DNA of 64,000 bases from Octopus vulgaris (Eukaryota). Below, in pieces: positions 21,123 to 23,052 of the stretch; the stretch's first letter is position 1, and every line of letters begins with the position of its first letter. Made by a program: the position numbers and the translations under genes. The notes under the pieces are model-generated. The model did not search any database, was not told where the DNA came from, and saw only the letters and a program-made list of their open reading frames with translations. Where the stretch lies: NCBI GenBank assembly GCA_951406725.2, contig OX597823.1:58962001-59026000 (forward strand), read 5' to 3'.

Positions 21123-21317
21123 CGGGATATATACAGTGGCAGTACAGAACCGTAACATATATTTTTCCAACTAAGTGTGGCGTCCTATACAGGACAGTGC
21201 TACTGATGTTCATAGCTCCAGGAAGTCATCTCCTCCAGCTGGCTAACGACACACATTCTGTGTCCGATGAGTATTTGAGAGGAGAGGTCATCGCTGCCAT
21301 CTCTAGTCTTACGTAGT

Positions 21318-21364
21318 ACACACTGACTCGAGTTTCTGGGTTGTTACCCGTCCTCATCGTGTGT
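21318..21364 (-). ncRNA. Minimal type I hammerhead, first core C mutated
   Basis: acacacg-ATGAGGA-c gggt aaca accc a-GAAA-C tcga GTC-agtgtgt. Confidence 0.7.
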
Positions 21365-21689
21365 TAATCACTAGCTAGTGATGGAAGCACATTCCATTCG
21401 AAATTACTGTATATTTTTCTGGCAACTCACTGTCGCTAATCTCGTCGAAGAGAGAGAATCTTATATTGAATCTCTGAGTGAAATATAAACAGTAGCAACA
21501 ATGTCCTGTATAGGTCACCACGCTTAATTGGCAAATATATATTACGGTTCCGTACTGCTACAGTTTAGATATCGCTCAGAGATTTGATATAACATTCTCT
21601 CTCTTCTACGGGATCAGCAACAGTAAGTCGCGAGAAAAATATATAGTAATTTGCAAGTGGAATGAGGTTCCATCAGTAGCTGGTGATTA

Positions 21690-21736
21690 ACACTCGCTGA
21701 AGACGGGTAACTACCCAGAAATTCGAGTCCATGTGT
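21690..21736 (+). ncRNA. Minimal type I hammerhead ribozyme (core intact; predicted cleavage after C21729)
   Basis: acactcg-CTGAAGA-c gggt aact accc a-GAAA-t tcga GTC-catgtgt; palindromic TCGA loop III. Confidence 0.78.
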
Positions 21737-23052
21737 ATCATGTAAGGCTAGAGATGGGAGCGATGACCTACCCTCGCAAATACTAATCGGATACATAATG
21801 TGTGTCGTAAGCCAGCTGCTGGAGATGTCTTCCTATAAACACCAGTAGCACTGTCCTCTATGGGACGCTACGCTTAGTTGGTAAATATATGTTACGGTAT
21901 ATGTGTGTGTGTGTGTGTGTTTATATATGTATTTACACACACACATATATATATACGTCATATCTATTTCATATATATATTATACATAAATACATCCATC
22001 TGCATACATACACACACACACAAACGCACACACACTCACACACACATATAGCAATATGACAAACTTCTTTCAGTTTCCATCTTCCAAATCCCCCTCACAA
22101 GGTTTTGGTAAGCCCGAGGTTATAGTAGTAGAAGACACTTACCCAAGGTGCCGCGCAGTGGGTTTGAACTGGGAGCCATGCGATAGTGAATACATTTGTA
22201 AGTATGTATGTGCAGATTCGCAGTGCGAATATTCAACATACTTTGGAAAACAACTATCCTGGATAAAAATTGAACAACGAATCCAATGGCATTCTGTATT
22301 TGTGCATTACTGGTTAAATATTTTATCGAATACGCCGCACGTTGTTTTTATTCTGTTATTTCCAAATGTGGTAACGCCGTCATGAATGAACTGACAGATC
22401 TTCTTGTGGATTAATAATTCCTTGTAAAATATTAAACGGTTACTTACAAATGCAACACAGATATTATTATTTGCTATTTTAATCTCAGTGCATTGTCTGT
22501 GGTTACTTCTGTCTCTATCAAGCACCAAGTCTAATCTTTTATCAAATGCAATACAACTGTGCCCATTGTATCCTAATCTCTTTAAAGACTGCTGTGTGTG
22601 ATTTGCAGGGTATTTGACTGTTAATTTTAGCACACCGGCCAATTGAGTTGAGCCTTTCCCATTTGTTGCTGTAATATATATTTGTGAAAACATATTTGTC
22701 CATGTGTATGTATGTGTGCATATGTGTGTGAATGCATATAAATCATTTTTTACATAGATCTTTAAATTTATTCCGTGTAGAAAAAGTATTATATCTTAAA
22801 AAACAAGTACTCACACACATAAATACACACACGCACACACACATATACATACACACACACACATGCACACACACACACATACACACACGCACATGTATAT
22901 ATATATATATATAATTATAATTAGGGTTCAGCAAAATTTGCTTCACCACATACCGAAATTTAGAAATAGCAGTTGGAACTACTATTTCACTACCATAAGA
23001 AAATCTCCCAGACTACAATACTCAACAACTCACAAAGGTAAAGAGAAAAATA

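What the first reader, a model, noticed from the sequence alone, without database searches (positions are those of the whole stretch)
21126..21898. ~350-bp hammerhead-ribozyme unit (HH1): candidate cephalopod non-LTR retrozyme / circRNA element
Seen: a non-coding 350-356-bp unit present twice in divergent orientation. Each arm overruns one monomer, so the unit restarts. Each carries stem I-CUGAnGA-stem II-GAAA-2-bp stem III-GUC, and the plus copy (21690-21736) has an intact core. Known: minimal type I hammerheads with palindromic loop III in tandem monomers of a few hundred nt define newt satellite 2, Schistosoma SM-alpha and metazoan non-LTR retrozymes, which self-cleave as dimers, yield circular RNAs and are thought to be mobilised by Penelope-like elements. 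Inference: this is such a family; I cannot tell whether it has been described in this lineage.
Basis: partly seen in the sequence, partly recalled or inferred. Interest (0 to 1): 0.9.

Follow-up and report, generated by a model that had tools for sequence, protein, structure and literature searches.

The report
Hammerhead retrozyme family with Penelope footprints
This is a decayed, inverted pair of copies of a 356-base non-coding repeat that is scattered through the genome, whose consensus carries a hammerhead-ribozyme motif and which was likely spread by Penelope-type retrotransposons; it is a new family of a known kind, and some copies elsewhere carry a protein-coding passenger element just upstream of the ribozyme.

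Summary
The repeat is real: two head-to-head arms (21123-21497 minus, 21484-21898 plus), 80% alike, each 1.05-1.2 units of a circularly permuted 356-nt monomer. The family is dispersed genome-wide; scored copies are 79-97% (median 88%) identical to consensus. The consensus has a full type I hammerhead with a palindromic loop III and folds as a strongly paired circle (z -5.7); sister families show compensatory changes. Copies do not end at the ribozyme cut (1 of 77) but at two fixed sites (65 of 77), mostly in TA-type microsatellites; 11 of 16 inverted pairs have one end of each kind. That is the Penelope-like (PLE) insertion footprint. No RT-GIY-YIG partner sharing the sequence was found. Verdict: a non-autonomous PLE-mobilised non-LTR retrozyme family, dead at this locus; cleavage and circles untested. 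Unexpected extra: ORF1-only LINE derivatives sit with target duplications about 20-40 nt upstream of the hammerhead in this and about six other hammerhead families (20 of 30 position-ordered 3' ends of one such element).

The parts
21123..21497 (-). Minus arm: consensus positions 183-356 then 1-201 (numbering from the ribozyme cut); 91-92% to consensus; carries the tail-class 3' end
21484..21898 (+). Plus arm: consensus positions 111-356 then 1-175; 89-90% to consensus; carries the commonest 3' end
21484..21497 (.). Inversion junction: 14 nt readable as either arm (an inverted microhomology between consensus 111-127 and 183-196)
21690..21736 (+). Damaged type I hammerhead: stem I 21690-96/21730-36 with two mismatches, CUGAAGA 21697-703, C.A-closed stem II 21704-17, GAAA 21718-21, C15.2>T at 21722, predicted cut after C21729
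21318..21364 (-). Damaged type I hammerhead: C3>A at 21357, C>A at 21324; loop III palindrome intact; predicted cut after C21325
21123..21148 (-). 26-nt tail running past consensus position 175, present on this arm only
21004..21122 (.). (TAT)n microsatellite and short TA run at the minus arm's 3' end
21899..21960 (.). TA/TG microsatellite at the plus arm's 3' end
37334..37596 (+). Older, more decayed relative of the unit (72-75% to consensus), with a further 46-nt piece at 37803-37848

Best explanation
The locus is one old, mutated insertion of a dispersed 356-nt non-coding hammerhead repeat (family A), likely a non-LTR retrozyme that borrowed the reverse transcriptase and endonuclease of a Penelope-like element. 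Shown: circular permutation, hammerhead consensus, fixed 3' ends away from the cut site, microsatellite targets, inverted pairs with a tail on one arm. Inferred life cycle: a tandem master copy was transcribed; two hammerheads paired through the 8-nt palindrome at stem III and cut out monomers, which likely circularised; PLE RT primed at a TA-rich target near position 167-175, copied through the ribozyme site and often past one unit; a template switch made the inverted second arm ending in the tail. At this locus both ribozymes are likely dead, and a read-through RNA would fold into a long hairpin rather than release a circle.
For: Consensus hammerhead with 7 of 7 stem I pairs and a self-complementary 15.1-16.1 segment (self-duplex -10.7 kcal/mol). 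Stem I sequence differs between families A/B, C and D yet pairs at the inner 6 positions in each, and the stem III segment is a different palindrome in each. Consensus circle z -5.7 for A (60 shuffles) and -7.7 for B (50 shuffles); of 110 predicted pairs in A, B keeps 81 unchanged, 6 by one change, 8 by changes on both sides, breaks 12, 3 gapped. 3' ends of 77 segments: 40 at 158-175, 25 at 200-250, 1 within 10 nt of the cut; 33 of 40 and 16 of 25 run into microsatellite; 11 of 16 head-to-head pairs have one end in each class, none both in one class. PMC8557442 describes inverted 5'-truncated copies, a 30-40 bp tail at one end only and microsatellite bias as PLE traits. Autonomous RT+GIY-YIG PLEs with open 781- and 775-aa frames exist in this genome, and four copies of the 775-aa family also show two 3' ends. 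Window plus copy folds no better than shuffles (z 0.15); read-through RNA has 306 predicted pairs joining the arms.
Against: No autonomous PLE sharing any of the unit was found: 30 GIY-YIG loci, 10 longer and 4 short PLE stretches gave only separate neighbouring insertions; only 150 of 6136 candidates were scored. The consensus hammerhead is atypical: a C.A mismatch sits where the G10.1-C11.1 pair is usually directly followed by GAAA, and the lowest-energy circle pairs CUGAG with the loop III segment instead of forming the active fold. Only 5 of 32 copies chosen by DNA likeness keep core, stem I and the 15.2-16.2 pair. Longest run is 820 nt (2.3 units), unlike long retrozyme arrays. In the 2026 preprint 8 of 9 predicted retrozyme dimers did not cleave in vitro. 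L159 has a long unit followed by a short unit in one insertion, which a single circle cannot template. Rfam does not recognise the motif.
Confidence: 0.8

Rival explanations
1. Same element and same PLE helper, but the template was uncleaved linear tandem RNA; the hammerhead is a passenger inherited from a pseudo-LTR and no circle is needed.
For: Only 1 of 77 5' ends and 1 of 77 3' ends lie near the cut site, which fits an uncut template as well as a circle. L159 joins a long and a short unit. PLE hammerheads cleave poorly in vitro (PMC4209133). Atypical stem II closure.
Against: Different palindromes at stem III and compensated stem I across families and compensated long-range pairs point to selection on ribozyme and fold. 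No long arrays of family A that could give long linear templates were seen among the loci fetched.
Confidence: 0.3
2. The arms are only pseudo-LTR fragments of an autonomous PLE that was not retrieved.
For: All insertion traits are PLE traits; the PLE search was far from complete (150 of 6136 and 150 of 16965 candidates scored).
Against: Copies run from position 175 straight on into 176 and round the same 356-nt unit, up to 2.3 times. Of 101 unit-bearing loci (with duplicates) only L045 has PLE RT sequence, separated from the unit by about 450 nt including a microsatellite. Where upstream sequence does leave the unit, it enters an ORF1-only element, not an RT.
Confidence: 0.1
3. A DNA-level element (MITE-like inverted repeat or satellite) with a chance hammerhead-like motif.
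For: The locus looks like a large inverted repeat; Rfam gives no hammerhead hit.
Against: Arms start at variable internal positions and most copies are single arms; the motif is kept with compensation in four families.
Confidence: 0.03
4. This particular inverted pair was co-opted by the host as a hairpin RNA or regulatory element.
Against: Each arm is about 10% from consensus like other copies and the arms differ by 20%, so pairing has not been maintained; Pfam shows only transposon remains in 115 of 124 window frames scanned, apart from one sub-threshold ERM_C hit.
Confidence: 0.03

Closest known systems
Metazoan non-LTR retrozymes (Cervera and de la Pena 2020, PMC7229834), especially the mussel 350-390-bp repeats and axolotl Rtz_353
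   Same: Type I hammerhead in a non-coding 350-360-nt unit, GC under 50% (45.8%), 2-bp stem III with a tetraloop, strongly self-paired circle; Rtz_353 also has a mismatch at the base of stem II (U.U there).
   Different: Dispersed, decayed fragments up to 2.3 units instead of arrays; C.A closure of stem II; fixed PLE-type ends and inverted arms; long variants with an ORF1 passenger; no cleavage or circle data. The paper's main text does not mention octopus, squid or cephalopods.
Non-autonomous PLE derivatives (bioRxiv 10.64898/2026.07.22.740005; Chlamys non-autonomous elements in PMC8557442)
   Same: Non-coding units that behave like pseudo-LTRs; tandem and inverted insertions; microsatellite targets; one-sided tail.
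   Different: There the link rests on homology to pLTRs and co-occurrence; here no homologous autonomous partner was found and the link rests on insertion ends. The preprint's 35 species include no mollusc.
PLE pseudo-LTR hammerheads (Cervera and de la Pena 2014, PMC4209133)
   Same: Extra nucleotide after A9, palindromic 15.2-16.2/loop III, opposite-strand pairs 100-700 bp apart.
   Different: Longer stem I (7 bp), short stem II (4 bp), an extra A before GAAA, and no RT frame. The young 781-aa PLE here has its own U3-A8 hammerhead with no DNA likeness to the unit.
ORF1-only L1/Tx1 derivatives (HAL1-like) and target-specific Tx1 elements (both labels recalled, not from a call)
   Same: The passenger has one RRM-like plus CCHC-knuckle frame, its own AATAAA end, 12-17-bp target duplications and piles up in tandem at one site.
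   Different: The shared site is just upstream of a hammerhead; searches listed no paper on such a target.

Membership tests
Non-LTR retrozyme | Type I hammerhead with conserved core | tested here: met
   Consensus CUGAGGA/GAAA/GUC, 7-bp stem I; atypical C.A at stem II base; not recognised by Rfam; window copies damaged
Non-LTR retrozyme | Monomer of 150-450 bp, GC under 50% | tested here: met
   356 nt, GC 0.458
Non-LTR retrozyme | Head-to-tail tandem repeats | tested here: met
   Units continue head to tail, 38 of 77 segments exceed one unit, maximum 820 nt (sample biased to long copies). No long arrays seen; the window locus has no two same-sense hammerheads
Non-LTR retrozyme | No protein-coding region | tested here: met
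   Met for the 356-nt unit. Long variants carry an inserted ORF1 frame; 5 of 46 hammerhead-pattern loci have its 3' end upstream (two of the 46 are duplicates)
Non-LTR retrozyme | Highly self-paired predicted circle | tested here: met
   z -5.7 (A), -7.7 (B), 8 double-sided changes between them; prediction only
Non-LTR retrozyme | Self-cleavage in vitro | not testable with these tools
   needs bench assay
Non-LTR retrozyme | Expressed as circular RNA | tested here: inconclusive
   Only assembled contigs of runs guessed to be RNA were available; wrap-around joints also arise from genomic tandems
Non-autonomous PLE derivative | Fixed 3' end, variable 5' truncation, inverted 5' arm, one-sided tail, microsatellite target | tested here: met
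Non-autonomous PLE derivative | Sequence shared with the pLTR of an autonomous PLE | tested here: inconclusive
   None in 44 PLE stretches examined; search far from exhaustive
Autonomous PLE (pLTR only) | Unit attached to an RT-GIY-YIG frame | tested here: not met

The most novel reading that the evidence does not exclude
ORF1-only LINE derivatives in this genome home on hammerhead retrozymes: unrelated sublineages insert, with target duplications and in pile-ups, 20-40 nt upstream of the catalytic core of about seven hammerhead families, and the resulting 2-kb protein-coding composite is then re-mobilised whole by PLE machinery. That would be a three-layer parasite chain (PLE helper, retrozyme, ORF1 passenger) and a natural ribozyme-delimited, possibly circular, RNA that encodes an RNA-binding protein.
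Probability: 0.55. Interest if true: 0.7.

Novelty: new member of a known kind. Interest (0 to 1): 0.48.

Why it matters
The helper of animal non-LTR retrozymes is argued from co-occurrence and pLTR homology; this family adds a direct insertion footprint (two fixed 3' ends, one per arm, in TA repeats) and shows that integration starts about 175 nt from the cut, not at it. It extends the class to a lineage for which my searches found no report, and yields several sister families, one young with tandem hammerheads (L212), on which cleavage and circle formation can be tested. The ORF1 passenger at a fixed place before the ribozyme is the surprising part. The locus itself is an ordinary dead repeat.

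Tried and rejected
Rfam scans gave no hammerhead hit. Expression: no RNA holder listed for the window stretch; contigs of 4 of 4 runs guessed to be RNA hold family-like pieces and two show joints going back 355-356 nt, but contigs give no strand, level or ends and genomic tandems or read-through give the same picture, so I use this neither way. Several pieces begin at L002 1684, next to the cut (1682); rejected, because L002 has private changes at 1672 and 1681 that stop alignments there. Autonomous partner: two young PLE families share no DNA with the unit; L045 and L108 neighbours are separated by microsatellites; L215 (ORF1 piece beside PLE RT) is a jumble of fragments. Junction microhomology is not general: 6 nt or more in 5 of 16 pairs. 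MAFFT alignment A1 misaligned stem III, so pairs were counted by anchored motifs instead. Automatic 5'-extent and target-duplication calls were noisy and are not used, only its tree; could not place the 5' end of one ORF1 subfamily missing from my library. Six of the young ORF1 arrays (L208/254, L210/255, L214/256, L216/257, L217/258, L219) showed no hammerhead at their ends. The scan's earlier notes held nothing. Lunse et al. 2017 on PLE hammerhead variants was not held, so whether the C.A closure is already described is open; Repbase and Dfam could not be searched.

Full report
Observation. The stretch 21123-21898 is an inverted pair whose arms are 80% identical. A search of the own genome (2.8 Gb, 227 contigs) gave 1999 first-look candidates, 40 scored, 85 matches on many contigs. 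A consensus of 32 near-full rows has a period of 356 nt. Numbering from the predicted cut, the minus arm covers 183-356 and 1-201, the plus arm 111-356 and 1-175; they overlap by 14 nt that read as either arm. Both outer ends run into microsatellites.

The ribozyme. The consensus has a 7-bp stem I, CUGAGGA, a 4-bp stem II closed by a C.A mismatch, GAAA, a 2-bp stem III and GUC; the 8 nt from 15.1 to 16.1 are a perfect palindrome (self-duplex -10.7 kcal/mol), the arrangement PMC4209133 links to cleavage as dimers. A 35-letter core pattern matches 16 places exactly and a looser one 207, with 0 for reversed controls. The looser pattern revealed family B, a 355-nt unit 74% identical to A (265 of 356), with 34 of 40 identities over the ribozyme. 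Families C (11 copies) and D (5 copies) have other stem I sequences that still pair and other palindromes at stem III. A and B consensuses fold as circles far better than shuffles (z -5.7, 60 shuffles; z -7.7, 50 shuffles), and of 110 predicted pairs in A, B keeps 81 unchanged, 6 by one change and 8 by double changes, breaks 12 and gaps 3. Against: Rfam does not see the motif, and the lowest-energy fold is not the active hammerhead. The window copies are damaged: minus has C3>A; plus has two adjacent stem I mismatches and a broken palindrome, and its unit folds no better than shuffles (z 0.15). Of 32 copies picked by DNA likeness, 17 keep the core letters and 5 also keep stem I and the 15.2-16.2 pair. 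The two window hammerheads face opposite ways, so no transcript holds two in the same sense; a read-through RNA is predicted to be a long hairpin (306 inter-arm pairs).

How it moved. In 77 segments of at least 90 nt and 79% identity from 72 loci (a few are family B passing the cut-off; the sample is biased to long, well-kept copies), 40 3' ends fall at 158-175, 25 at 200-250, 12 elsewhere, 1 of these near the cut; 5' ends are scattered, 1 near the cut; 33 of 40 and 16 of 25 ends enter microsatellite; 11 of 16 head-to-head pairs have one end in each class and none has both in one class. The window locus is such a pair (201 and 175). PMC8557442 gives inverted 5'-truncated copies, a one-sided 30-40-bp tail and microsatellite bias as PLE features (passages). 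The genome has young autonomous PLEs with RT and GIY-YIG (781 aa; 775 aa), and four copies of the latter also show two 3' ends. Neither shares DNA with the unit, and of 101 unit-bearing loci only L045 has PLE RT sequence nearby, across a microsatellite. So the unit is non-autonomous and its helper is unidentified. cDNAs passed through the cut site and up to 2.3 units, which needs a circle or an uncut tandem RNA; DNA alone cannot tell these apart. Median identity to consensus is 88%; on the octopus calibration quoted in PMC13282606 (distance 0.12 = 33 million years; passages) that would be roughly 30 million years if host and rate match (inference). Copy number is not measured; about 2000 first-look candidates recurred in two searches, likely a cap.

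The passenger. Following family B upstream led to a 1.7-kb element with one frame (393 aa open in L143) that has a weak CCHC knuckle match (E 0.003, below cut-off) and look-alikes with RRM-type and CCHC domains, ending in AATAAA plus a short A/G run. In full-length cases it sits inside the unit with a 13-17-nt duplication (L155, L161 in family A; L148 in B). Of the first 30 of 46 exact matches to its 3' end, taken in genome order, 20 abut the site about 20 nt upstream of the CUGA of families A, B or C, and 8 of the 10 others have their own target duplication (my reading of the printed junctions, the motif flag alone marked 13). Conversely 5 of 46 hammerhead-pattern loci have its 3' end upstream. 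A tree of 33 3' ends mixes A, B, C and free copies; one clade at 100/99 holds B, C and a copy first labelled free. That copy (L143) proved to abut a U3-A8 hammerhead, and more distant ORF1-only families end 32-40 nt before further hammerheads in L197, L211, L212, L213 and L218, with two or three elements piled at one site in L211, L212 and L213. L212 holds a 363-nt unit related to C and D, in tandem at 98% identity, with a CCGAUGA core. Against generality: six young ORF1 arrays show no hammerhead. Several 5'-truncated composites lack upstream unit sequence and duplication (L222, L224, L244), and L231 joins an inverted unit arm directly to the truncated ORF1 UTR, which suggests the composite moved whole by the PLE route; part of the 20 of 30 may therefore be re-amplification, not fresh targeting. 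The HAL1 and Tx1 labels are recalled.

Literature seen. PMC7229834: passages and section 14. PMC4209133: parts 1-2 of 4. PMC8557442, PMC13282606 (0 mentions of ribozyme or hammerhead in the main text), PMC7761336: passages; their supplements were not opened and may list such repeats. Searches listed no paper on cephalopod hammerheads or retrozymes; 53, 54 and 74 none on LINE derivatives targeting hammerheads. Subscription papers, Repbase and Dfam were out of reach.

Verdict. New member of a known kind, with a clear PLE insertion footprint and an unexpected ORF1 passenger. Interest 0.48; novel case probability 0.55, interest 0.7 if true.

Noticed in passing
L212:2123-6450, L213, L218: Young 363-nt hammerhead unit (family F, related to C and D) in tandem at 98% identity, with a CCGAUGA core in every copy seen; best candidate for cleavage and circle tests.
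   Followed up: partly
L102-L107 (e.g. L103:467-5440): Young autonomous PLE, copies 96-99% alike, with an upstream 480-aa frame, a 781-aa RT+GIY-YIG frame and a U3-A8 hammerhead about 70 nt from its 3' end.
   Followed up: partly
L250-L253: Second young PLE family (775-aa frame) with no canonical hammerhead in its 3' 1.1 kb and two alternative 3' ends about 35 nt apart.
   Followed up: partly
L208, L210, L214, L216, L217: Near-identical 1.8-kb ORF1-only elements (457-aa open frame) in head-to-tail arrays of up to five or more, no RT and no hammerhead found.
   Followed up: partly
L065, L143, L197, L211: Further hammerhead families (U3-A8 type with palindromic loop III; another CUGAAGA type) not characterised.
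   Followed up: no
window 26780-27228 (-): Truncated GIY-YIG end of a PLE, 45-60% identical to the 781-aa protein.
   Followed up: partly
window 28247-29257 (+): Fragmented Tc1-type transposase (HTH_Tnp_Tc3_2, DDE_3).
   Followed up: no
window 19345-20086 and 20131-20175: Another inverted repeat, 237-nt arms 92% complementary, 268 nt apart, with a further 45-nt copy; possibly a MITE.
   Followed up: no
window 23404-23753 and 24125-24539: Two copies of a common dispersed repeat, 78-88% alike, SINE-like in size.
   Followed up: no
family A consensus 298-313: A near-perfect 16-nt palindrome just upstream of stem I contains the ORF1 insertion site; 14 of 77 5' ends fall at 299-317, some being family B alignment limits.
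   Followed up: partly
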